Origin: Podarcis vaucheri
Taxonomy: Eukaryota
Length of the DNA stretch: 64,000 nucleotides
Assembly: GCA_965113315.1 (NCBI GenBank)
Contig: OZ220363.1
Reading direction: 5' to 3' (one strand)
Shown: piece by piece, positions 203-60,814 of the stretch
Numbering within the stretch: the first letter of the stretch is position 1
Layout of the letters: each line of letters starts with the position of its first letter
The notes under the pieces: generated by a model
Seen by the model: the letters and a program-made list of their open reading frames with translations, nothing else
Database searches by the model: none
Told to the model about the DNA's origin: nothing
Position numbers and translations under genes: made by a program

Positions 203-3200
203 GTAAGGGGGCGGCCTCGCTGGGGGCGGCGGCAGCGGCGAGTCTCCCTGAGAGGGAATGGGGGGGGAGGGGGGAGAGGGAGAGGAGCCGGTGCAGCTCG
301 GCTTTCAAGGCGGATCGCGAGGAGGCGGGGGAGGAGGGGTTAATGGAATATATATGTGGGTGTACGTGTGTATGTGTGTACACGTGTGTAACGTATATGA
401 TCTACAACATCGTGTCGAAGTTTGTTCCAGGTCCTGGAAGGATGCGACCGGTGGCTGCTGAGGCCGGCGTATATATTCTGGCAGCCGGATAGTTAAACAG
501 AGATGCTAAATTCTTATAGCGAGAGGTGTCTGATTCGATATCCCGCTTGGTGGGGGGTGGGGAGGGGAGGGGATGAGAGCTGTGTGCAAAGAAAAAGGGG
601 GGTGGGGAGGGGAAGCCAGTGGGGAAGGGGAAGAGGTGTTTGTAACAGTGTGGTATAGTGGTTTCTGCATGTGCTGTAGAGGGAAGCGAGGGGCAGATGG
701 GGCACACCAACCTGCGAAGGTAGCTCGTTTGGAGAAGGAGAACTCCAGTCCTAAACCTCCGCCTTGCATGATTTATTCAGGAGAAGACAAGGCTTAGGAG
801 TAAAAACCCTACACAGATCCAGAAGGGAGTCGCTAAGATGGTTGGATGGCGCCTTGTACGCCTCCATCCGGCAACTGCTGCAGCCAAGCTGGTGCCCAAC
901 GTATTGCTCTGCTTTCCTTTGGATCATAGCGAGGCCAAGGGGGGGGGGGAGTCATCGACTAGGCAGCCCTAGAACTCCACAAACACTGCCCAGGCTTGTA
1001 CCCCAAGGAGGTCACTTTGGTGCTGTTAATGCAGTGTTTTGACTTCGCCCTCAGAGGCGCACTCAATTGTCTCTAGAGGCAGTAGAGTGCCAACAACAAT
1101 GGCGGTTAGAGCAGAGTTTTCCAAATGTTTCATGTTGGTGACACACTTTTTAGACATGCATCATTTCGTGACGCAGTAATTCAGTTTTACTTAAGGTTAC
1201 CAGATTTTTTTCAATGAATCCAGGGACACTTTTCAACTTCAATGGATTTTGTATGGGGACCGTTTTGTAAATCCGGGACTGTCCCCGGGAAACGGGGACG
1301 TCTGGTAACCTTTTACTAGCAAACCGGAGGTTAAACTAACCCCTTTCTATCTGCAGGAGGAGTGCAGGGAGCGTTCATGCAACATGCCGGTACACTAATG
1401 TGTCGTGACACACAGTTTGGAAAACTCTGCGTTAGAGTGTCAACCACCTGGCCCCTCTGGGCCAGTCATGTAGCTCACTGAGTGACCTTGGGCTAGGTCA
1501 GACTTCCTCAACTTCAGCCCTCCAGATGTTTTTGGCCTACAACTCCCATAATTGTCGTCTCAAAACATCTGGAGGGCCGAGGTTGAGGAAGCCTGGGCTA
1601 GATACTGCCTCTCAAAGGACATCATTTTTCAGGCTTTGAACAGAGATTGTAGGCGGTGTTTCTTCTGCTTTGTTGTATGTATCCTATTCTAGTTTCATGT
1701 TCAATAATTAGTACAGGCATCCCCAAACTCTGCCCTCCAGCTGTTTTGGGACTACAACTCCCATCATCCCTGACCATTGGTCCTGTTAGCTAGGGATGAT
1801 GGGAGTTGTAGTCCCAAAACAGCTGGAGGGCAGAGTTTGGGGATGCCTGAATTAGGATGTGTGCTTCAATTCAGGTGTATATGAACGCCTATCATATTTT
1901 CAGCCTGCTTTATACATCTGGAGAATTATATGACATGATCTACAAAAGTTCATGCCATGATAAATGTTTCAGATTGCAGTCCAGCCTTAAAACTCTTCCT
2001 AGCCCCTGATCTGATAATGCTTACTCAAAACACAATTTAATGGGTTTTCCTTTCATGTATGTATCAAGCACAAGCCTTCCTTCAGGAGTGGGAAACTTTT
2101 GACCCTCCAGATGGTGTTGAACTCCAACTCCAGTTATCCCCAGCCAACATAGCCATGTGTGGGGAACTTTTGTCCCTCCAAAGGTTGCTGAACCACAACT
2201 CCCATCATCCCTGGACATCCCCCATTGGTAGGGCTGATGCAAGTTGTAGTTAAGCAATATCTGGTGGGTCAAAGGTTCCCCACACCTGTTGCAGGCCATC
2301 ATTATTTGGAGGGCTACAGTTTCCCCACCCTGCCTTTTGTTACTATATAGAGTTGTCAAGTAAACATACCTAAGGTGATAACAGCAATGGTCTGATTTAT
2401 TATCAAGCAGTGATATATATTGTAAAAAGAGATCTTTAATGGGGGGGTGGGGTACATAACCAATTCTTACCATGACTGTGGTATGTACTTCACTCTTTGT
2501 AGTCTGTGTTCTACTGTTTGAACTGGGGATAGGCCCAGATTCCAGGTGCTTTGCCATTATTAGATAAGTGGCTCTGATAGTCACACTTCATTTAAAAGAA
2601 GGGTAGGTGAGGATAGACAAGCTGTGTCCTTCCAGATGTCGATGCATTCCAGCTCCCATCAGCCCCAGCTAGCATGGCCAGTAGTCAAGGATGATGAGTT
2701 TTTTACTCCAAGAATATGTGGAAGACCCCATACCTGTTTAGATGCTAGAGCACAGTTTGTTGTCTACATGTTCAGACTTCATAATCTTCAATGAATCTAA
2801 AGTTTTAAAGGTGGGGTTATTTGTTTTAACCAGCTGTTTTAAACACATGCTTCCAAAGCTATCAATGGTGTACAGCTATGAGCCAATGCACTCCTTGAGT
2901 TGCAGACACCTGCATCTGCTTTTCCAGCTGCAGAGCAATTTGAGCCTCCCGCATCCCTCCCTGAAAGAACTACAGTGGTGCCCCGCAAGACGAATGCCTC
3001 GCAAGACGGAAAACCCGCTAGACGAAAGGGTTTTCCGTTTTTGAGCTGCTTCGCAAGACGATTTTCCCTATGGGCTTGCTTTGCAAGACGAAAACGCCTT
3101 GCAAGTGTTCCGATTTTTTTTCGCTCCCCCCCCCTTTTTCTAAGCCGCTAAGCCGCTAATAGCCTTTTAGCTGCTAATCCGCTAAGCCTTTAATAGCCGC

Positions 3201-6200
3201 CAAACCGCTAATAGCGCTAATCCGCTAAGCCGCTAATAGGGTTGCTTCGCAAGACGAAAAAACCGCTAGACAAAGAGACTCGCAGAACGGATTAATTTCG
3301 TCTTGCGAGGCACCACTGTACTTTTTCTTTACAGCTAGCTGCAGTCTGAAGAAGTTAATTGTCATGAGAAGTTAGCCAGTGGAGGCTTTTAGAAGCAGTT
3401 GCTGTAGAGGTGATATGTATGGGAGATGACTAAACCAAATTAGAGAGGACAGAGGTATCTACAGAAGACAATTGGAAAGAAAGTTAGAATTGACTCAGTC
3501 TGCAGATGCTTAACACCAAAGAAGGTTAAAGAATGGTTAAGAGAGTGATCAATATGATAGTAAGAGGGATGCTGTCTATATGGGGACCAACAGCCATATC
3601 CATGGGCAGCTATCCCTGTGTGAGTGGTAATGTTACACATGAGTAAAATGCTCTGAATTACATAGCAGAGCATTAGGAGATTATAGATGTAGCTGCAGCT
3701 GTGATCCCAGCTTACATGTGCTACATTTCACTAAAGGATTCCAACAATATACCTCTGGGTATAGGACAGTATAGAAATTTAATAAATAATAATAAAAATG
3801 ATTCTTTGATTCTAAGAATCAAAACAGTCCAACTTAAAGGCTAGATAGGCATGAATTTAAACGCCATAGTGGTCAAGCTTTAAAAACTTCTGATACTCTT
3901 ACACAGCAAACTCAAATCTCTGAAAATTAAATTGACACTAATTTGATTAACATTTTATCTCATAAATGACCATGGGAGTAAAATGACTATTTCACACTTT
4001 GCTGAAGAAGCATCTGATAGGCAGTTAAGCAAAGAAAAGCTTCGAGTTATTACAGCAAATGTAATTTTAAGCAAGGTGGAGCTCCTCACACAGCTGTCCA
4101 TAAATAAGAGCTGTATTTCCATAATCCTTATACAGCGTAGAGGGATGCAAGCCTTAGTTTTTGATAGATACAGTGATGATAGGAGAGTTGGTTGAATAAG
4201 TAAGTAAGCTATAACTGTAAACATGTCCCATGAAGCAGTATTTAAAGCAATCTTGAGGATATTAAGCTTGCTATCGATACTAAAACATAGTTTTCTTTTA
4301 AAATTTTGACCTTTTTAGAATATAAAACGATTGGTAAGATTGGCGAGGGAACATTTTCTGATGTTCTGAAGGTACAAAATTTCAAAGATGGACAATATTA
4401 TGCATGTAAACAAATGAAACAGCATTTTGAAAGGTAGGTGCAGCTGCTTTTTTAATTTTCTTTTTACTTAAATGTTGAAATACTGAAATTTGGATGATCA
4501 AAGTTTGATTCTGAATATTTATAAATATTATACAGAAAAAGAGTGCCTTCAAAGAGGACAACTAACCTTACAACCACTACATTTCTCAATAATGGACTCG
4601 GCTGATATATCCAAATTTGTCTCTCTTTTGTCCCAAGCGTTAAACATAGTATGCAGCCCTTCTCCGGATCCCACAACCATCAAAGGTGTAGGAGCTGGTG
4701 ACCAGAGACAGAGGCTTCTCTGTGATCTCTTACAGAAGTACCGTATTTTTCGCTCTATAACACGCACCCGACCATAACATGCACGTAGTTTTTAGAGGAG
4801 GAAAATCCGTAGGCATGCCACCCGTAGGCATTCCCTCCATAACACGCACAGACATTTCCCCTTACTTTCTAGGAGGAAAAAAGTGAGTGTTATGGTGCAA
4901 AAAATACGGTAGTTTACATGCTGTTTTATAAGCTGCTTTCATAACCTGGGGGAATGCCATGAGATGCCTCTGCTATTAATGTAATACATAAATAAAATAA
5001 AGAAATAACACTTTTCTGCTACCGGAAGAGAAAACCATGAAATGCTCTAATTCACTCATCCAAGCATGTATCTCACACATCTCTTGAGATTATGTGTGGC
5101 CCAATTCACAGACTGAACAGAGCAACAATAAAGAGGAGGGGGGATGAAGTGTTTACTCTTCTGTAATTTTAACAAACAAAAGCGACCTTAGCATGGTAGC
5201 CTAATCTTTTCCCTTTTTTATATACTGAAGTATCGACCACGTGAACAGTATGAGAGAGATACAAGCACTAAGGCGACTGAATCCACATCCAAATATCCTC
5301 ACGTTGCATGAAGTGATATTGTAAGTGCCACATGCTTTTTTTCACCTTCCCTTTCTATCCCCTGAGTATTCTTCCCTAAGATGATGTGGAGGTGGTGAAT
5401 CACAATTTCATTTGCCAGACCAGTTTTAATCTGGTTACAGTTGCTTGAGGCAACAGCTCCTCTATTTTCCTGTGGCATAATGAATGAGATTCTGCCTTTT
5501 CCTACACCCCTGCTCCCAGGAGGGCAGCAAATACCCTTGCATTGGGAAGTGAGCCTCCTGGGGCTGCCAATCACTTGCACTTGAATGGCTGAGTAATATA
5601 TCTAAGTAAGGCCATTGAGCCACTGGTAGCATGAACACATGTACAAGACTCTACATGTACAAGTTTTAAGGAACAACTTGCTTTTATTCCATCTTTATCT
5701 GTATTCTCTGGTAGCGTAGATGATGGCAGCACCAACGGTACAAGAAAAGTACAATGAAGGACTCAAGTAATGACACTATTAAGGAGAATTACATGTACAG
5801 GCAACTCCCAATTTACATGCATTGAAGGCACATGTGACCATGCGCACATGCATTGCCATGAACCTGGAAGTGGCATGAAAAGGAGCAAAAACAGCCCTAA
5901 AAGTGAGCAAAAAACGGCAGAAATTGCATGAAAACAGTGTCTAGCAATCCCACAAGCCTTTGCGAGTGCAATCCCAGGAGCCTTTGCCCCGAACTTTGAG
6001 GCCTGTTGAGAGTTGGAGCTTGAGCAAGGAGGTTTGGAGGGTGCTTGCAGGTTTTTTCAGTGGTGTTCCCAATATACGTGATTTCACTTAAACACGCGGT
6101 GCCTCAGAATGTAACCCCTGTGTAAATGGGGAGTTGCCCATACTGTAAGGAGGGCCATCTTATGCCACCTGCCCAATAAAAGACTACAGGTGGTCAGTGG

Positions 6201-20101: not shown

Positions 20102-20430
20102 CAGTGGTGCCTCGCAAGGCGAAATTAATTCGTTCCGCGAGTTTTTTCGTCAAGCGAATTTTTCGTCTTGTGAAGCACGGTGTCGGAAAAGTTTTGGAAA
20201 AGCTTCAAAAATCACCAAAAACCTCAAAAAGGCTACCACACCGCGCTCTATCCTCAAAGTCAAGTCGCAACTGTATTAACGGTGTTAAGAAAAAGGAAAC
20301 AAACTTGCAAAAAACGCAAGACGTTTTCGTCTTGCGAAGCAAGCCCATAGGGAAATTCGTCTTGTGAAGCAGCTCAAAAACCGCAAAACCCTTTCGTCTA
20401 GCGAGTTTTTCGTCTTGCGGGGCACCACTG
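20102..20430. mobile_element. Family A MITE copy 2 (opposite orientation, different core)
   Basis: TA|CAGTGGTGCCTCGCAAGGCGAA...TTCGTCTTGCGGGGCACCACTG|TA. Confidence 0.9.
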
Positions 20431-21033
20431 TATAACATAAGTAGCCTTGGGGGAGGGGGTCACACCAGAACCCTTGAAAGGCACAAAAGGTAGCCAAGGA
20501 CTGGATTGTTCTGTTGTTTTAGTGTTTACATGCAAGTGGGAAATGTCAGGTTTCAGCTTTGAAATCAACGCTGGCTCTTTTTCGTTTGAAGTTTGTAACT
20601 CATTTAGCTGATATGGTCTAATTTCACAAGCCAGAGAGGGAGCTGAGTCAAGGGATGGGGCTTCAGAACCCCTCAAAGTTCCTTGACCTGACCCACAACT
20701 AGCAGAAGCGAAATGTCATTCATCCAAAGCAAGCAAAAATACGCAAGCTTGCCCATTTTTTGCTGGTCTCAATTCAGCTTTCTCCGATGAGAGTATATTT
20801 TGTCACAGCTGTTCTATTGAAGCCTACAGAGCTGTCACATGACAACTACCACCAGCTGGGAGGGGCAGAGACTTCTTGCACAGCCCTCTAAGGAAAGAAA
20901 CTTGCAACTGTCAAGCCACATGGGTTTCATGCATTCTGAAGTACAGCTATGCTCCCAACTTCCTCTCCTGCATTTGAACTTGAATCCCGCCATAGAAGTA
21001 ACTTGTTCATTATAGTTCTGCCTCTTCGTGATT

Positions 21034-23842: not shown

Positions 23843-24564
23843 CTGCAAACAAAGCAATTTGCATTAATCCAGCATGAGAACCCAGCATTTAGTTTTCTAA
23901 ACAGTTCTATATATATCTGTAGACTTTCAGTGCACAGTGGCATTTGCATATTATGACTTCAAAGTGATAGATCACATTGTTCGAACGTCTTAACATGAAC
24001 GACTTCGCTCTTTATGTAGCAGTTTAGTTCAAAGTAACTTATAAGATGTAGATCATAATTAGAATTCCAGGGGTGTAGCAGCTGTAATATGTTCCAGCAA
24101 GCAAGGAATATGGTTGCTGCTTTAAAATGAACATGAAGTATCCTGATAAAACTTGACAGAGTGGGTTTTAGTCCACAGACGCTTATACCATAGTATGTAT
24201 TCATTTTAATAGGCCCCAGGAATCTTGATTATGACCGTAGTATGATTAGATTTTAGCTCATGTCTTACAAAACTTAAGCTATCCTATTAAAAACATAAAG
24301 TCAGTGAGCTGCAGGGCACATTTGTGCCACAAGTCTTTTACCAGGAGGTTACGATCAACATGTATCTCTCCCTGCTGTATGCACCTTGCAACCATAAGAC
24401 ACAAGTATTCATGAGGGGCTCTTCAGCCAGATGTTTCAGAGTGCAAGCTGGAGCCCCTCTCAGCCACTGTATCTATGCCAAGGAAAGATGCTGCAGCCTA
24501 TTGTTCCTTGGATGCAGAACTGCTGGTTGGGGGGGGGGATTACCCTGCTTTTTCAAATGACATA

Positions 24565-24890
24565 CAGTGGTGCCCCGCAAGACGAATGCCTCGCAAGACG
24601 GAAAACTCGCTAGATGAAAGAGTTTTCCGTTTTGGAGGTGCTTGGCAAAACGAATTTCCTATGGGCATGCTTCGCAAGACGACAATGTCTTGCGAGTTCC
24701 TGCTGTTTTTTTTCCTTTCCCCCCTTTTTCTAAGCCGCTAAGCCGCTTATCAGCTGATCCGATCAGCAGATAAGCCGCTAAAAGCCGCTAACAGCGCTAA
24801 TCCGTCAATGGGCTTGCTTCGCAAGACGAAAAAACCGCTAGACGAAGAGAATCACAGAACGGATTCTTTTCGTCTTGCGAGGCACCACTG
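24565..24890. mobile_element. Family A MITE copy 4
   Basis: TA TSD, same TIRs; central palindrome ttatcagctgatccgatcagcagataa shared with copy 5. Confidence 0.9.
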
Positions 24891-36108: not shown

Positions 36109-37407
36109 TTAAGGGTTAAAACTTACCACTTTACCAGGCCTTGCCCATGTGCAAATAAATCCCTCCTGACAAGCAGTGACTATACAGTCTTCAAGAAAAA
36201 TTAACACAGTCAGTCTTTCGTGTGCTATCTTTTTACAGATAAGAGGCTCTAACAAAGGAACTTCCTCCATTCTGGGACACAGGGGCGTTCCCAAAGTTTT
36301 TGCTGGGTCCGTTTTGGTTTTAGTAACTAGGTTCAGTTTGTCACTGCTCTTGCTAGATATATGTCCCATACTATGGTTTCGCTTGTGGTCTTTTTCGTGG
36401 TGCCTCTCCTTCCGATCATGTAGTGATAAGGTTGCAAACTTACTAACGCCAGAGGCAATGGCGCCGTCCATGACACTGCTTTTACTGCCAGAATTGGAGA
36501 CGGCAGAATGTGGAAGGCTATTGGACCGTGGAAGAGGAGGGGGCACAGAGTTCCCAGGTGTTGTGATGCTGTTTCCATTACTGCCTGGATTAGCTCCACC
36601 GCTTCCTGCAGGTGGGCTGGTTGCATTCATGACATTTGTGTGTGTCCTTGCTCTCGAGAGGGGCTGGTGTGGGAAGAGGATATCTTCTGTTAGGTCCCAT
36701 AAGCATAGCTGCGTGTCCTGGCCCACTGAACCAAACCTATATGTGACACTTACTGGACGACTGTCCGTAGAGTTCCTTTTAGATAGCCTAGACTGCGTGC
36801 TGTTTGCTCGATCCCTTCCAAAATGAAGAAGGTCTTGGAAGTCCTCGTCGCTGCCACTGAATTCCATTGGGTCGCTTTCTTCTACGCTAGTGGTATACGG
36901 ATCAAAGGCCACGACGCTGACCCAGGATTTGTGTCCGTGGCCTCTAGCTATCACTCGGCAGTCCACAAAAGACCAGACAGTCACTAAGTCGTCTTCTCCG
37001 CCTGTCACGATGTATTTGCCATCGGGGCTCCAACATGCGCACAGCAGCCCTCCAAAGTAGCTTTTCATTGTACCGTGCAACTCCACAGAATCAAAGTTAA
37101 ATACACGAAGAAAGCCATCCTGGCTTACACATGCCAGGAATTTCCCATCTGGGGAAAAAGCAAATTCGTTCAGGGCCCCCTCACCTACTGTCCATTTAAG
37201 CAAAGGGTTTCGTGTAGATTTGCTCTTGCATGTATGGACTGCAAAACTTTCTCCTTGTTTGAGTAGCTGATAGTGTGGGGCTGTGGTACCACAATTGTGT
37301 TCCACGTTATACAAGTACATATTGCCACTGGAATGAGCTACTAGGAAGAGGCTTTCTGAACCAGGAACCCATTTTACACAAGTTACTCTGGACTTGTCTA
37401 TTAGTCT
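36109..37407 (-). CDS. WDR20: WDR20 large exon (WD40 repeats; USP12/USP46 regulator), read-through isoform ending GKVVSFNP*
   Basis: ttccag|RLIDKSRVTCVKWVPG...; WD40 repeats (AFSPDGKFLACVSQDGFLRVF, WSPDGKYIVTGGEDDLVTVW, GHKSWV). Internal donor GTG|GTAAGT at 36127/36126; stop at 36109 if the donor is not used. Confidence 0.97.
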   Translation of the reverse strand, partial: RLIDKSRVTCVKWVPGSESLFLVAHSSGNMYLYNVEHNCGTTAPHYQLLKQGESFAVHTCKSKSTRNPLLKWTVGEGALNEFAFSPDGKFLACVSQDGFLRVFNFDSVELHGTMKSYFGGLLCACWSPDGKYIVTGGEDDLVTVWSFVDCRVIARGHGHKSWVSVVAFDPYTTSVEESDPMEFSGSDEDFQDLLHFGRDRANSTQSRLSKRNSTDSRPVSVTYRFGSVGQDTQLCLWDLTEDILFPHQPLSRARTHTNVMNATSPPAGSGGANPGSNGNSITTPGNSVPPPLPRSNSLPHSAVSNSGSKSSVMDGAIASGVSKFATLSLHDRKERHHEKDHKRNHSMGHISSKSSDKLNLVTKTKTDPAKTLGTPLCPRMEEVPLLEPLICKKIAHERLTVLIFLEDCIVTACQEGFICTWARPGKVVSFNP

Positions 37408-41126: not shown

Positions 41127-41309
41127 TTCCTCATTAAATAATTTGCTAGTTTCTTTTTTAATAGGATCTATAAGTTGCACCTGGCCTGCAGAGAAGCCCA
41201 CTAGTAGAGAAACACTTTCTGCCGTGGCTGTTAAATGATTGAAGTCATGACACGTTGGTTGTGTTCCTTTGTATATCCTTTTATCTATTGGTTTACTCAA
41301 GTCAGCAGC
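41127..41309 (-). CDS. WDR20: WDR20 internal coding exon (183 nt, exon 2 equivalent)
   Basis: ttttgcag|AADLSKPIDKRIYKGTQPTCHDFNHLTATAESVSLLVGFSAGQVQLIDPIKKETSKLFNEE|gtaagt; phase 0/0. Confidence 0.96.
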
Positions 41310-43392: not shown

Positions 43393-44271
43393 ATGTAAAA
43401 CCAAAGTATGGATAAGAACCTTATGCACTTGGCTAAGACTTAACAACTCGCCAGTTGGACTACTTTCCCTGATGCTTCTTGACAAATTCCAATCTAGTTG
43501 GTTGAAGGGCACTCTCAGAAAATTGGCCACATATAGTCTCTCCCCAGAGTTTTTATTAAGTTTAGAAAGGGGAAAGGCCAAGAATATAATCAAAGAAAGA
43601 CTCAGGGACATAGAAGCCCAAAATGACTTGGGTCAACTTCCAATAACTCATAAACTCCTATTCGATTCCCAAAGCCCCCATCTAGCAAACTATCTTAAAG
43701 TTCTACATAATGCCAAACACCGTTGGGCATTTACCAGGGCCCGCTTTAACGCTCTCCCTTCAGCTCTTCTAGAGGGAAGATACAACAAAATACCGTTCGA
43801 ACAAAGATTATGTCCCTGTAACAGCAACGAAATAGAAACCATCGGGCATGTCATCTTATATTGCCCATTATATCGAGACTCAAGAAAAGAGCTGATCGAG
43901 CCGATTCTGAGGAAAATACCTCGTAGTACAGATGACACCTATATCAGACACCTCTTAGCTGACAAAGACCCCGAAATTAACAGGCCTGTGGCGAAGTACT
44001 GTTACATTGCAACAAGAATAAGACGAGCAATGACAGCAACAGAGTTCAAATTGCAAACATCGAAGGAACGATAATAAACAGTAATGACATTTGAATTGAA
44101 TCCTCAAAACCTTAAAAGTCGAAACCTGATCATAAACATAAGTACCAATTTTGTGATTTGGCCATATCTCCACTGTTATCTGTAGTACAATAGTACTCAT
44201 ATTGCCAATATTATTTTATTTTATAAATTGCTTGTTGGTCATTGACCGTATTAAAGATATTTAAAAAAAAA
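43393..44271 (+). mobile_element. 5'-truncated non-LTR retrotransposon, probably RTE-X clade (ORF C-terminus, 3' UTR, A tail)
   Basis: Uninterrupted frame of about 225 codons ending at 44074 with GRY..IP.EQRLCPC..E..HVILYCPLY Cys/His motif; 3' end ggtcattgacc hairpin, ATTAAA, A-run. Confidence 0.8.
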
Positions 44272-53195: not shown

Positions 53196-53407
53196 ACATA
53201 ATAGTGTTTAGCTTTTTGTGTTGTTAATACTGTTTAACAGATTATGAATGTTTTATTCATGATTTCCCTCTGTCATTTTTACAGCAACAGTTCCCAAAAT
53301 CAATGATTTTTCAGAGAACCCTAGGAGGAGGAAGTTCAACTTAAATATCACAAGTTCATCTCTACAGTCATGTTTCAATTTCCCACCCCATAATGAAACA
53401 TTTAGTA

Positions 53408-53733
53408 CAGTGGTGCCCCGCAAGACGAATGCCTCGCAAGACGGAAACCTCGCTAGATGAAAGAGTTTTCCGTTTTGGAGGTGCTTCGCAAAACAAATTT
53501 CCTATGGGCTTGCTTCGCAAGATGACAATGTTTTGCGAGTTCCTGCTGGTTTTTTTTCCTCCCCCCCCCCTTTCCTAAGCCGCTAAGCCGCTTATCAGAT
53601 GATCCGATCAGCAGATAAGCCGCTAATAGCGCTAATCCGCTAATCCGTCAATGGGCTTGCTTCGCAAGACGAAAAAACCGCTACACGAAGAGAATCACAG
53701 AACGGATTCTTTTCATCTTGCGAGGCACCACTG
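53408..53733. mobile_element. Family A MITE copy 5
   Basis: TA TSD, same TIRs; near-identical to copy 4. Confidence 0.9.
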
Positions 53734-56766: not shown

Positions 56767-57158
56767 CCGTCTTTTTCTGTGTATAAGATGAGGTTGTTAT
56801 ATTATAAAGAACTGTTACAATTTTGGGGTCATCTTATGCACAGATAGTGAGGGGGGACCTGCGATTGGTGGCAGCTGCGAGCAGGAGATTTTAAGCGGTG
56901 ATTTGGCTGTGGTTTTTGGGCTGCAGCAATGCGTGCTGGCGACTGGCTGCTGCTGTGGGAAGTGGCTGTGTGTTTGGCGGTTGCTGGTGGCTAGCGGCAG
57001 ACAATCAATGGCTTCGGTGAGTTGTGCAACTCTGGGCAATCCCCCCTAAAAAAGCTCAACAACTCTGGGCAATCTCCCCCCCATTTCTTTAATTTTGAGT
57101 CCCCCAAAATGGGGGGTTGTCTTCTACACGGGTGTGTGTTATACATGGGAAAACACGG
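56767..57158. mobile_element. Older Tc2-like non-autonomous element
   Basis: TA|CCGTCTTTTTCTGTGTATAA...TTATACATGGGAAAACACGG|TA. Confidence 0.7.
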
Positions 57159-58009
57159 TATCTATCCAGTTTTTTGCATGGCCAGCAAGGAAAGCCAAAA
57201 ATTGTAGACACCTGTTTCAGCGCCTTCAATTCTTAGTGTGCTTTAATTTTCCTCCTTATCAGACCTTCTCATTAAAATCCCTTCAGCTGCTGGAAAAATG
57301 CTGGTGCTATATAGCATGTACGGTTATCAGAGTACACGGTACTTCTTAAGTTGTTTACTATTAGTCAAAATAAACATGCTGAATAAGATCCTAATTTAGA
57401 GCATGGAACCCTTTTCTGGAAACTCCACAACATGGCCCAATAGGTAAAAGGGCAGTGGGGTGATTATTTGAGGTAGGAGATGACGAGCCAGAACTCCAAA
57501 CAGCTGAAGAAAGAAGAAGGTACTCACATCTTTTCCTCCTTTGGATCAGTGTCTAAAATTGCAGTACCTCTCAACTTCCTTATTCTCACCTGCTATGCTA
57601 AACCTTCTTGCCTATCTGGTTAGGGCACCTCCTTCACCCTTCCAAACACTGCACTATCCAGGAAAGCATGCCAGATTAACCCCTCCCTGACATTGGTGTG
57701 AGGCCTTAATCTCCAACAGCCCATCTTGGAGAAATAAAATGAATCTGGAGCCAGGCAAAAGGGAGGGGAGGAAAAGGAGCACTCCTATTCAAATAATATC
57801 CTTTTGTTCCAATCAATAGGTTATAGATAGCTATGTGTGAGCTCCTCATGCAATAACAGGCTGCTGGAAGAAACATTAATTCATAAATATTGTTCATCTT
57901 CTTTATAATCTTGGCTACATCCATCCCTATGACACCCCTAAATTAGATCACTCTCTCTGCTTTAATCAAATGTACTCTTTGAACGCTAAATCATGCTAAT
58001 TTTACAGAA

Positions 58010-58219
58010 GTAGATAGGTAGCCGTGTTGGTCTGCCATAGTCAAAATAAAAAAATTCTTTCCAGTAGCACCTTAAAGACCAACTAAGTTAGTTCTTGGTA
58101 TGAGCTTTCGTGTGCATGCACACTGTGTATCTGAAGAAGTGTGCATGCACACGAAAGCTCATACCAAGAACTAACTTAGTTGGTCTTTAAGGTGCTACTG
58201 GAAAGAATTTTTTTATTTT
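58010..58219. mobile_element. Penelope-like retroelement remnant (inverted pseudo-LTR hairpin)
   Basis: Perfect 81-bp inverted repeat (58043-58123 / 58139-58219); flanking direct repeat aattttacagaa (57998-58009, 58220-58231); gtagccgtgttggtctg and ttaaggtgctac motifs as seen in reptile Penelope ends. Confidence 0.85.
58127..58164 (+). ncRNA. Minimal type-I hammerhead ribozyme motif
   Basis: GTAT (stem I) CTGAAGA A GTGTGC-AT-GCACAC (stem II) GAAA GC TC ATAC (stem I'); predicted cut after C58160. Confidence 0.7.
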
Positions 58220-60814
58220 AATTTTACAGAAACAGTGATGATCAAGAAAGATGTGGTATACTATAACAGATAGCTTAAAGAAAAACTATGAAGACAAGAA
58301 CAATCTAAGCTCATTAATCAATAATCAGTTTTGCTGAGCATATTTGAGGGTTAAGAGGATGGCGCAAATATAATAATAATAAAACACCACTGGCAATGGG
58401 AGCCATTTAGATGTATACATGACAGTTAGGCGGAGGATTTCTACATATTCAGGCAAGAAAGTAATTAACAGTTCCTAGAAAATCATGTTATGTTACAGTT
58501 CTTGAGTTAGAAAGAATAGGCAATAACAATTTAAACTTCTATTGAACTAAATCAAAAGTCATTGGGAGGCTCCTCGACAAGTTCTGAAAAACTGTGTTAC
58601 TTCCCCCCACCCAAATGTTACGACTCTAGTCCCAACACAATCAGGAAAAAGTGTTACAACAGTAACACATAGCGCTACAGCGGTTCTAGAAATAGAAAAA
58701 TTAGGTTTCACATATGTTCATGACACACTGCTTCCAAATTTAATACTTTCCTGTTCTGGTTAAAAATGTAAAACTAGTTAACCATCTACTTTGATTTGTG
58801 TAGCTTCTCAACTCCATCACCAGAGTGAGAAACTTATTTAGTGCCACACACACAGATGCCTCCAGGAACTGCAATCCCAGACAGACTTCTATTTATACTT
58901 GAAAATATAATTACAGTGTCTCCTGTGCCATGCCTCCCAATCCCTGTTCTCAGTCACTTTTATAAATCCTATAAAAAGGATGTAGCAAAGGCCTTATTTT
59001 CCTACTCCCCCTGTTTCTAGTTGTAGCAACTTGTTTCCTGCATCTATTAAGTCTTCAAATATTCAGCACTCCATTTTAATTACTGCTCATTTGGACAGAT
59101 CCTCCCTCCATAACAGCTGCCCACCTTTTCCTGTACTGGTCCCTATTTGCAGCTTGAAGTCATTTGGATTAATCATTCTCTTCTCTCCTCAGAATGAGGT
59201 ATTGGGGCAGAACATTGGTATTCTGCGAGACATGAGATATTTGTGGGCTGCTTAAATGTTTTATTGCTAAGGAGAAAATCTAGAACCAACTATTTTGTCC
59301 TTTAATTAAGGATTTTTTGGAAGCAGTAATAGCAAAGCCTCTTCCAAGAGATTACCAGCACATCGGTCCAATTAAGATTTTACCAACTCAAGGCAGCTCA
59401 CACTACAATCCCAAGCTTCAAGAATACCATCTTAACTGGCTTACGTTCCCAATGCTGATGTATCTTGGGCACATACCACACCATCATTGGCGATCATTTT
59501 AGCTGATAGTCCCAGAGACAGCAACATATCCTCACTGTTGGCAGAACTATTGATAGAGTGGCCAAGATGGGCAGCAGGTGGTGAGGATCAAGCTTAGCCC
59601 AATTTCTTTGCTGGCAAAATAACTGAAAATGAGTTGCCAAAATAAACTATTCCTCTCCCTGCCACCACCTACACTGCTGTGGCAGACTATAGACTCTAAC
59701 TGCACCTAACTGCAGTGCGCTAACACTAGTATACAAACCGCCCCGCACTAAGGAAGCCCTTTACTCACATGACAGAGCACACATCACTTGGGTCTCACAT
59801 AGTTCCCACAATGGGAACTTTGGTGAGAAGATCTATGGTGCAAGGGCAGACTGCACAAAGAGAGGGCACCCTACATGAACAGCCTAGCCTCAGCACAAAT
59901 ACAGGATGAGCTCATTGCCACCATTGGCCTTCTCAGAACTCTAACTCTGCCTCAGGATTCAAAACAGAGATTATACTCCACTGCTTCAAAAGGGTTCACA
60001 AGGAGGAAAGGTGCCATGCCTCAAAGTATAACTGCTACACACGTCTCCCACATTTTGCTCCTCATGCTTCAATACTCTCAACTGTGTAGAAGAAATGCTT
60101 GAGTCCATGAGCAGCATGTGCTCTGTTCCAGCCACTGCAACTGCTGGTCAAAGGTGAGGACCCATCTGCCTTATAGGATCAATGCCTGGGCACAGCTACT
60201 TTGAGCACAGATCTTTGTTCTCCTTGTCCATTTATTCATCCATACCCAGTTTTTCCTAGACTCTATGCACGTAAGAGTCCCACTTCCCAAGGAAGGGGTA
60301 ACTATTGTTTCAGACAGTACCCTTCTTCCACACAACACAGCAAGGGCACCAGAAGGGTATTGAGATGGAAGAACCATCACTTGCTCATGAGCACTTTGAC
60401 TCAATCAGTCCAGTGACTGTGTTGCAGCTGGTAATCATTACTCATCAGTGTCCCTATGGCACTTCAGAGGCAGCACTCCAGGGAAGGATGTTCAATATTA
60501 TACAAACCCCAGACAGCTTGCTTGGGAGGAAGCATATATTGGACCCAGGCTGCCCTAAGGCTCAAGGTTCCGCCATACTCATCTGAAAAAAGGACCCAAG
60601 AGAAAAGAAGCCCCTAGGCAAACATACTGGTATGCTCAATGCACGATGTACAACCCTAACTGCTTGTTAGGGTATGGCCCCCTACCCTGTAAAAAAATAC
60701 ATAATTCTCCCACACCCAATAAGATTTTATTCTTCCCACCTTGCCTTTTTCTTTCAAAGAAAAAGTATTAGCCAAAGGCTAAGCTCAGCTCTTATTCTGA
60801 CTATCAATTTCTAC

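What the first reader, a model, noticed from the sequence alone, without database searches (positions are those of the whole stretch)
58127..58164. Penelope-type hammerhead ribozyme intact only on the strand antisense to the host gene
Seen: + strand GUAU-CUGAAGA-A-GUGUGC(AU)GCACAC-GAAA-GC-UC|AUAC has the full hammerhead core, a 6-bp stem II, a 4-bp stem I and a palindromic AGCU in place of stem III. The mirrored arm supplies stem II, GAAA and the cleavage site on the - strand but lacks the CUGAAGA, so the copy in the WDR20 pre-mRNA is incomplete. Known: Penelope-like elements carry minimal hammerheads with a palindromic stem III that act as dimers, and an extra base after A9 is tolerated in some natural hammerheads. 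Inference: the asymmetry may reflect selection against cutting the host pre-mRNA, or just where the inversion arose during insertion.
Basis: partly seen in the sequence, partly recalled or inferred. Interest (0 to 1): 0.7.

Follow-up and report, generated by a model that had tools for sequence, protein, structure and literature searches.

The report
Young Penelope hairpin stub in WDR20
The small self-cutting-RNA motif is real but is one of more than 9,000 identical copies carried by a common jumping gene; here it lies in a recent mirror-image insertion in a WDR20 intron, and its presence on one strand only is likely a by-product of how the copy was pasted in rather than a safeguard for the host gene.

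Summary
Observation confirmed. The 38-nt motif is the minimal hammerhead of a Penelope-like retroelement (PLE); its exact 34-mer occurs 9,164 times in this genome. It lies in a 209-bp head-to-head insertion (58010-58218) with a 13-bp target duplication, inside WDR20 intron 1. Contigs of three other organisms show the empty site, so it is young. The selection idea is not supported. The same junction recurs at 46 loci, with the core on the tailless arm in 40. Of the first 50 head-to-head copies, 33 have one core, 14 two, 3 none. Where exons flank a one-core copy, the core is antisense to the host in 6 and sense in 5. A plus-strand transcript is predicted to fold into an 82-bp hairpin about 45 kcal/mol below the ribozyme fold. 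The sample is small, so a weak bias is not excluded; cleavage was not tested. Side result: arm anatomy suggests one uncut RNA primed twice, from both target nicks, and copied to a start site just upstream of the ribozyme. The scan has logged similar Penelope fold-backs in other genomes as ordinary.

The parts
57997..58009 (+). Left target-site duplication, 13 bp
   Evidence: Only direct repeat of 7 bp or more flanking the insert; a single copy remains at the empty site in contigs of runs X3, X5, X11 (table 8)
58010..58124 (-). Tailed arm: element-sense on minus, from the A before stem II (offset +7 from hammerhead C3) through the ~33-bp tail; lacks CUGAAGA and the 5' strand of stem I
58010..58042 (-). 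PLE 'tail', present on this arm only
   Evidence: Unpaired part beyond the inverted repeat; tail on exactly one arm in 85 of 90 head-to-head loci, on both in 0
58098..58124 (-). Coreless hammerhead half in the WDR20 pre-mRNA direction (stem II, GAAA, cleavage triplet, 3' stem I strand)
58125..58218 (+). Tailless arm: element-sense on plus, from offset -6 to +87; carries the whole hammerhead
58127..58164 (+). Minimal type I hammerhead motif: stem I 58127-30/58161-64, core 58131-37, extra A 58138, stem II palindrome 58139-52, GAAA 58153-56, AGCU 58156-59, predicted cut after C58160
   Evidence: architecture as in PMC4209133
58043..58219 (.). Perfect inverted repeat, arms 58043-58124 and 58138-58219 (82 bp), 13-nt loop holding the core
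   Evidence: folding about -143 kcal/mol on either strand
58219..58231 (+). Right target-site duplication, 13 bp (first T shared with the arm end)
41127..41309 (-). WDR20 coding exon 2 (host gene; the insertion lies in intron 1, exon 1 is beyond the window end)
36109..37407 (-). WDR20 large coding exon 3 (host gene)

Best explanation
This is a recent, non-coding, head-to-head stub of a very abundant Penelope-like retroelement in WDR20 intron 1, and the catalytic core likely sits on one strand only because of where the two arms were joined during insertion, not because selection removed it. Shown: 209-bp insert, 13-bp target duplication, empty site in three other organisms, thousands of identical motifs, longer copies with a GIY-YIG endonuclease and RT-like frames upstream. 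Inferred mechanism: the element's RT-endonuclease nicks both strands of an AT-rich target 12-13 bp apart; one uncut element RNA is copied twice from two internal start points about 35 nt apart (giving a tailed and a tailless arm); the copies run towards the RNA's 5' end, which likely lies 4-7 nt upstream of the hammerhead core (TATA-like box 30 nt before an initiator-like TCAGT); the two cDNA ends are trimmed and joined. Whichever copy reached the 5' end keeps the core; here the tailless one. The hammerhead belongs to the element's own life cycle. At this locus it is predicted to be idle: no element promoter is present, the core faces away from the pre-mRNA, and any read-through RNA would form an 82-bp hairpin.
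For: Target duplication and empty sites. 9,164 exact motif copies, 4,592 plus and 4,572 minus. 832 head-to-head copies with a spacer up to 30 nt. The identical junction at 46 loci with different targets: core on the tailless arm 40, on the tailed arm 5, no tail 1 (40 of 45, p=8e-8). First 50 head-to-head loci: one core 33, two 14, none 3. Direct repeats of 12-18 bp in 63 of 85 one-tail loci. Host orientation 6 antisense to 5 sense with exons on both sides, 2 to 2 with exons on one side, out of 72 one-core loci examined. Flank-skew proxy on the core strand +0.008 +/- 0.007, n=72, p=0.22. An intact solo copy lies sense inside a WDHD1-like gene (L181). Hammerhead-compatible ensemble -99.1 versus free -143.6 kcal/mol. 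49 of 100 exact-motif copies start within 8 nt of the core (peaks at -4, 18 copies, and -6, 14 copies); 1 of 48 incidental copies starts near the cut site. Arms share 41 variants against 4.2 (max 13) in permutations, 74 of 90 loci used. Literature: inverted pLTR plus tail plus TSD (PMC8557442, PMC3846280); both strands nicked and extended, two internal RT starts define the tail, anole hammerhead needs protein and is dispensable in vitro (PMC11167929); low activity of minimal hammerheads (PMC4209133).
Against: The orientation sample is small: only 15 of 72 one-core loci gave a usable gene call, several second exons were read by eye, and all solo copies come from 6.4 Mb of one contig; a 70:30 bias would be missed. 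The skew proxy is weak: it pointed the wrong way at L069. Retrozymes are reported as depleted in Xenopus introns (bioRxiv 10.64898/2026.07.22.740005), so selection against genic insertions of such elements exists in general. The transcription start is inferred from DNA ends and motifs only. Shared variants between arms could also come from one source locus or from gene conversion. No RNA data and no cleavage assay.
Confidence: 0.85

Rival explanations
1. Purifying selection removes intronic copies whose intact hammerhead lies on the pre-mRNA strand, so survivors such as this one have the core antisense.
For: This copy is antisense. Solo copies in genes were 4 antisense to 2 sense. Intron depletion of retrozymes in Xenopus (bioRxiv 10.64898/2026.07.22.740005, Results).
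Against: 6 versus 5 for one-core head-to-head copies; the identical junction is sense in three host genes (L056, L058, L030); two-core copies lie in genes (L096; L135 and L136 by inference); skew proxy shows no antisense excess. The hairpin would hide the motif anyway.
Confidence: 0.08
2. The inverted arm arises by fold-back or self-priming (cDNA or an antisense RNA turning on itself at the stem II palindrome) instead of two separate primings; the asymmetry is still mechanical.
For: Arms come from one template; stem II is a perfect 14-nt palindrome next to the junction; self-priming on an antisense template was proposed for PLE inverted repeats (PMC3846280, passages).
Against: If the tailed cDNA folded back on itself it should keep the 5'-most sequence, but the tailless arm keeps it in 40 of 45 exact-junction loci and 15 of 23 other one-core loci. 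The tail is on exactly one arm in 85 of 90 and the tailless end clusters at offsets 79-92 whatever the target.
Confidence: 0.3
3. The head-to-head unit with this exact junction is itself a small non-autonomous element copied from a master hairpin locus.
For: 46 loci share the same 35-nt junction.
Against: The outer ends differ between loci, the tail is on the other arm in 5 of 45, and the loci carry different variants that are shared between arms within a locus but not across loci.
Confidence: 0.07
4. The plus-strand ribozyme is used: it cuts an antisense transcript over WDR20 intron 1.
For: Core, cleavage triplet and stem I are intact.
Against: Young, lineage-restricted insertion; computed probability of stem I or II about 1e-16 or less once the upstream arm is in the RNA; no partner hammerhead in the window for a dimer.
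Confidence: 0.02

Closest known systems
[quoted passage not shown]
   Same: Type I layout, 4-bp helix I, long helix II, unpaired base between positions 9 and 10.1, G10.1-C11.1 pair, palindromic 15.2-16.2, thousands of mostly truncated copies, pairs on opposite strands.
   Different: Stem II here is a perfect 14-nt palindrome with a 2-nt loop; the computed best dimer pairs the two stem II palindromes (-30.6 kcal/mol) rather than AGCU (-13.0 for one site). Not assayed.
Head-to-head insertion unit of EN+ PLEs: inverted 5'-truncated pLTR, 30-40-bp tail at one end, TSD (PMC8557442 section 6; Pen2a_Av in PMC3846280)
   Same: Inverted arms, one tail of ~33-38 bp, target duplication, TATA-like and initiator-like motifs in the pLTR.
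   Different: Reduced to the ~95-130 nt around the hammerhead, with no coding sequence; one junction recurs 46 times.
Neptune/Nematis-type EN+ PLEs (PMC8557442)
   Same: [quoted passage not shown]
   Different: Clade not tested by a tree; the RT pieces gave no Pfam hit.
PAc, Poseidon element of Anolis carolinensis (PMC11167929)
   Same: Hammerhead at the pLTR-ORF junction, tail between two inferred RT start points, AT-rich targets, template apparently uncut.
   Different: In PAc the ORF starts at stem II; here the N-terminal frame follows the tail (L030) and the linker has the extra zinc-finger-like motif.
Animal non-LTR retrozymes (bioRxiv 10.64898/2026.07.22.740005)
   Same: Short non-coding PLE-derived units with a hammerhead; a five-unit head-to-tail array of this family exists (L170).
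   Different: This copy is head-to-head with a TSD, not a tandem array.

Membership tests
PLE minimal hammerhead (type I) | Core C3 U4 G5 A6 N7 G8 A9 ... G12 A13 A14 A15.1, U16.1, H17 | tested here: met
PLE minimal hammerhead (type I) | Helix I 4-5 bp, long helix II with G10.1-C11.1, extra base between 9 and 10.1 | tested here: met
   4 bp; 5-6 bp; A58138; features from PMC4209133
PLE minimal hammerhead (type I) | Palindromic helix III position allowing a dimer | tested here: met
   AGCU 58156-58159; but the computed best dimer uses stem II instead
PLE minimal hammerhead (type I) | Self-cleavage as a dimer or with protein | not testable with these tools
   No assay; DNA copies show no excess of 5' ends at the cut site (1 of 48)
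Rfam hammerhead families | Covariance-model match | tested here: not met
   No hammerhead family at E<=10
EN+ Penelope-like elements | C-terminal GIY-YIG endonuclease with CCHH-type cysteines upstream of the pLTR | tested here: met
   PF01541 above its cut-off in L004; cysteines seen in the translation
EN+ Penelope-like elements | Telomerase-related RT in the same ORF | tested here: inconclusive
   RT-like frames with an IDD motif upstream of the endonuclease in L004, broken by stops; no Pfam hit on the pieces; RT reading is recalled
EN+ Penelope-like elements | Hammerhead in the pLTR; inverted truncated arm; tail at one end; TSD | tested here: met
Neptune/Nematis clades | CX2-5CXXC linker between RT and endonuclease | tested here: met
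   Seen in L004 translation; definition from PMC8557442
Neptune/Nematis clades | Placement in an RT phylogeny | not tested
   No reference RTs fetched
Non-LTR retrozymes | Head-to-tail tandem of hammerhead units | tested here: not met
   This locus is a single head-to-head unit; met only at L170

The most novel reading that the evidence does not exclude
These stubs are a fossil record of the PLE insertion reaction: one uncut RNA that begins 4-7 nt upstream of its hammerhead is primed from both target nicks, each nick using a different one of the two internal start points, and the two cDNAs are joined head to head near the RNA's 5' end. This twin-priming rule would explain at once the tail on exactly one arm, the 12-13-bp duplication, the shared variants and the recurrent junction, with over 800 natural products in one genome to test it on.
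Probability: 0.35. Interest if true: 0.45.

Novelty: new member of a known kind. Interest (0 to 1): 0.2.

Why it matters
As a single locus it matters little: a young, probably idle retroelement stub. The family is a useful resource, because the steps of Penelope insertion after priming and the role of the hammerhead are still open (PMC11167929, PMC8557442), and this genome holds thousands of near-identical recent copies. If intronic copies did show a core-specific strand bias, that would be population-level evidence that these weak ribozymes cut RNA in vivo; the small sample here gives no sign of it.

Tried and rejected
Rfam: only spurious microRNA-hairpin matches below gathering score, no hammerhead. 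DNA search of the own genome with the 132-nt unit returned nothing because common words are skipped; uninformative. The look-up of sequencing runs: no RNA holder listed; expression and RNA ends at the cut site remain untested. Flank-skew proxy: right sign for WDR20 intron 1 (-0.087) but wrong at L069; the left/right consistency check crashed, so the proxy is unvalidated. Exon finding: 150 of 245 candidates for the 72 one-core loci and all 142 candidates above score 9 for 66 sample loci plus 14 two-core loci were scanned; most loci gave no gene. Set aside before counting: L108 (upstream of exon 1), L072, L114 (intron status unclear), L063 (transposase), L131, L146, L147, L138, L148, L082, L179 (exons on one side only or unclear). 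Spliced-leader origin of the -6 start rejected: the 14 copies share no upstream sequence. Cleavage-product origin of the stubs rejected: 1 of 48 starts at +28..+32. MicroRNA precursor rejected: matches below cut-off, hairpin explained by the insertion. Lunse et al. (RNA Biol, dimers) is not held; seen only as cited in PMC6765202. Paper searches for twin priming or template switching in PLE inversions and for strand bias of intronic PLE hammerheads listed nothing on point; the library lacks most subscription papers. Supplements were not read; those of PMC4209133 and PMC11167929 may list this family or discuss the inversion.

Full report
Observation. The motif is present as described at 58127-58164 on the plus strand. 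A minimal-hammerhead descriptor finds only this site in the window, against 0.01 per shuffled window in 100 shuffles. The 34-mer from the core to the end of stem I has 9,164 exact copies in the 1.6-Gb genome, evenly on both strands, and the reversed control has none. Rfam has no hammerhead match. The host is WDR20 (PDB 5k19) on the minus strand; exon 2 is at 41127-41309 and exon 1 was found in the fetched flank at window-equivalent 77251-76990, so the motif is in intron 1 and antisense to the pre-mRNA. That the organism is a lizard is my recalled impression and comes from no call.

The unit. The motif is part of a 209-bp insertion, 58010-58218, between two copies of a 13-bp target duplication. 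Its two arms form a perfect 82-bp inverted repeat with a 13-nt loop that holds the core. The left arm carries an extra ~33-bp tail. Single contigs from 3 of 4 runs laid (X3, X5, X11; organisms B, C, F) run straight from 57996 to 58219, the empty site; the fourth (X1, organism A) has contigs entering the insert from both flanks (table 8). With identical arms, the insertion is young.

The family. Longer copies continue upstream into a GIY-YIG domain (PF01541, E 1.6e-5, above cut-off; 1 of 3 frames scanned), preceded by a CX4CXXC linker and RT-like frames broken by stops; the RT pieces gave no Pfam hit. By the definitions in PMC8557442 (sections 3 and 6 and passages read) this is an endonuclease-positive Penelope-like element of Neptune/Nematis type; no tree was built. 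PMC4209133 (introduction, results, discussion read) describes the same minimal hammerhead, including the extra base after A9, its occurrence in reptiles, pairs on opposite strands, and low activity even as dimers. PMC8557442 and PMC3846280 (passages) describe the inverted truncated arm, the tail at one end and the TSD.

Why the core is on one strand. There are 832 head-to-head copies with a spacer of up to 30 nt. In the first 50 listed, 33 have the core on one arm, 14 on both, 3 on neither. The window's exact junction occurs at 46 loci on many contigs; the core is on the tailless arm in 40, on the tailed arm in 5, and one has no tail (p=8e-8 for 40 of 45). In the 44 other loci the one-core cases split 15 tailless to 8 tailed (p=0.21). 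Direct repeats of 12-18 bp, mostly 12-13, flank 63 of the 85 loci with one tail, all with different sequence, so these are independent insertions. Core placement thus follows the insertion chemistry.

Test of the selection idea. I fetched 10 kb around 89 head-to-head loci and 66 further loci and looked for host exons with a simple splice-site scorer plus Pfam. Of 72 one-core loci, 11 had exons on both sides: core antisense in 6 (L042, L044, L068, L069, L084, L115), sense in 5 (L030, L056, L058, L081, L113); p=1.0. For L030, L056, L068, L081 and L113 one of the two exons was recognised by eye from the translation, and L058's upstream exon has only a weak Pfam hit. Four more had exons on one side, 2 antisense and 2 sense; 4 with Pfam hits were set aside and the rest gave no gene. 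Three of the sense cases have the window's exact junction. Among solo copies, which lack a masking arm, 4 were antisense (L154 by Pfam; L151 and L168 by exon candidates only; one in L137) and 2 sense (L181 by Pfam on both sides; one in L137, inside a span inferred to be one Ig-MAM gene). A base-skew proxy for transcription direction gave +0.008 +/- 0.007 on the core strand (n=72, p=0.22), no antisense excess, but the proxy failed at L069. Strong selection is therefore unlikely; a moderate bias, above all among solo copies, cannot be excluded. A preprint (10.64898/2026.07.22.740005; abstract, most of Results, Discussion read) reports fewer retrozymes in Xenopus introns than expected; the parts I read give no strand test.

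Can it cut here? In RNA containing both arms the hairpin ensemble is -143.6 kcal/mol against -99.1 with the hammerhead stems enforced. As the plus strand is transcribed the left arm comes first, and the computed probability of stem I or II is 1e-16 or less at all five lengths tried. There is no second hammerhead in the window to dimerise with. For two isolated motifs the best computed dimer pairs the stem II palindromes, not AGCU; these energies ignore tertiary contacts. The related anole ribozyme does not cut without protein and is dispensable for insertion in vitro (PMC11167929, main text read). So the motif is predicted to be idle at this locus; no RNA evidence was obtained.

Mechanism suggested by the copies (inferred). 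Of the first 100 exact-motif copies, 49 begin within 8 nt upstream of the core, with peaks at -4 (18) and -6 (14), 16 begin at -9 to -50 and 35 further up. In long copies a TATA-like hexamer starts at -37, 30 nt before the A of an initiator-like TCAGT at -7 (motif names recalled; a similar pair is noted for a rotifer PLE in PMC3846280, whereas Drosophila Penelope has a TATA-less internal promoter, PMC2377424, passages). Only 1 of 48 copies not chosen for the motif starts near the cut site, 8 at -8 to 0, 22 at +1 to +27, so the template seems to be uncut RNA. The tail is on exactly one arm in 85 of 90 head-to-head loci and never on both, and the two arms share 41 variants against 4.2 expected (74 of 90 loci used). 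PMC11167929 shows that a PLE protein nicks and extends both strands and starts at two internal sites that bound the tail. Together this fits one RNA primed twice, once from each nick, with the cDNA ends joined near the RNA's 5' end. Fold-back or antisense self-priming (PMC3846280) remains a rival. Searches listed no paper stating this rule or testing strand bias, within a library that lacks most subscription journals.

Earlier notes. The look-up returned eight AI notes on other genomes that judge similar Penelope fold-backs ordinary; they agree with, but are not evidence for, this reading. One gave the lead to PMC3846280.

Verdict. Real motif, known kind, ordinary locus. Interest 0.2.

Noticed in passing
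L170:~4750-5300 (G000:C1:5631954-5632397, minus): Five head-to-tail units of 101-104 bp, each running from about offset -9 to +92 with an intact hammerhead: a retrozyme-like array in which cis dimers could form.
   Followed up: partly
L181:~4870-5040 (G000:C1:6229173, minus): Solo copy with intact core and stem I, 15-bp target duplication and no long antisense arm, in sense orientation inside a WDHD1-like gene; a good test case for cleavage of a pre-mRNA.
   Followed up: partly
L030:7224-7700 +: The tail runs directly into a 159-codon open frame that likely is the N-terminus of the element's ORF, followed by another short hammerhead copy starting at -6.
   Followed up: partly
family copies: Nine of 18 copies that start at offset -4 have a G just before, and both copies that start at -7 do too; could be a reverse-transcribed cap, or chance.
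   Followed up: no
window 58075, 58090, 58102, 58153, 58160, 58168, 58172 (table 3): Common family variants; C58160 to T changes the cleavage triplet to UUU-type ending and G58153 to A hits G12, both at CpG-like or transition-prone sites.
   Followed up: no
window 2742-3044, 20398-20715, 24415-24741, 53256-53501: Several copies of a short repeat that translates to the same pseudo-peptide; another abundant non-autonomous element.
   Followed up: no
window 56767-57126: Degenerate inverted repeats (I2 and I4) around a GC-richer core, like the ends of an old DNA-transposon remnant.
   Followed up: no
window 43394-44074 +: 226-codon frame that looks like the C-terminal end of a non-LTR retrotransposon protein in WDR20 intron 1; no Pfam hit.
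   Followed up: partly
L012-L013 (window-equivalent ~81700-87500, minus): Long gag-, protease/RT- and integrase-like frames of a young Ty3/Gypsy-type LTR retrotransposon about 5 kb upstream of WDR20 exon 1 (names recalled from motifs).
   Followed up: no
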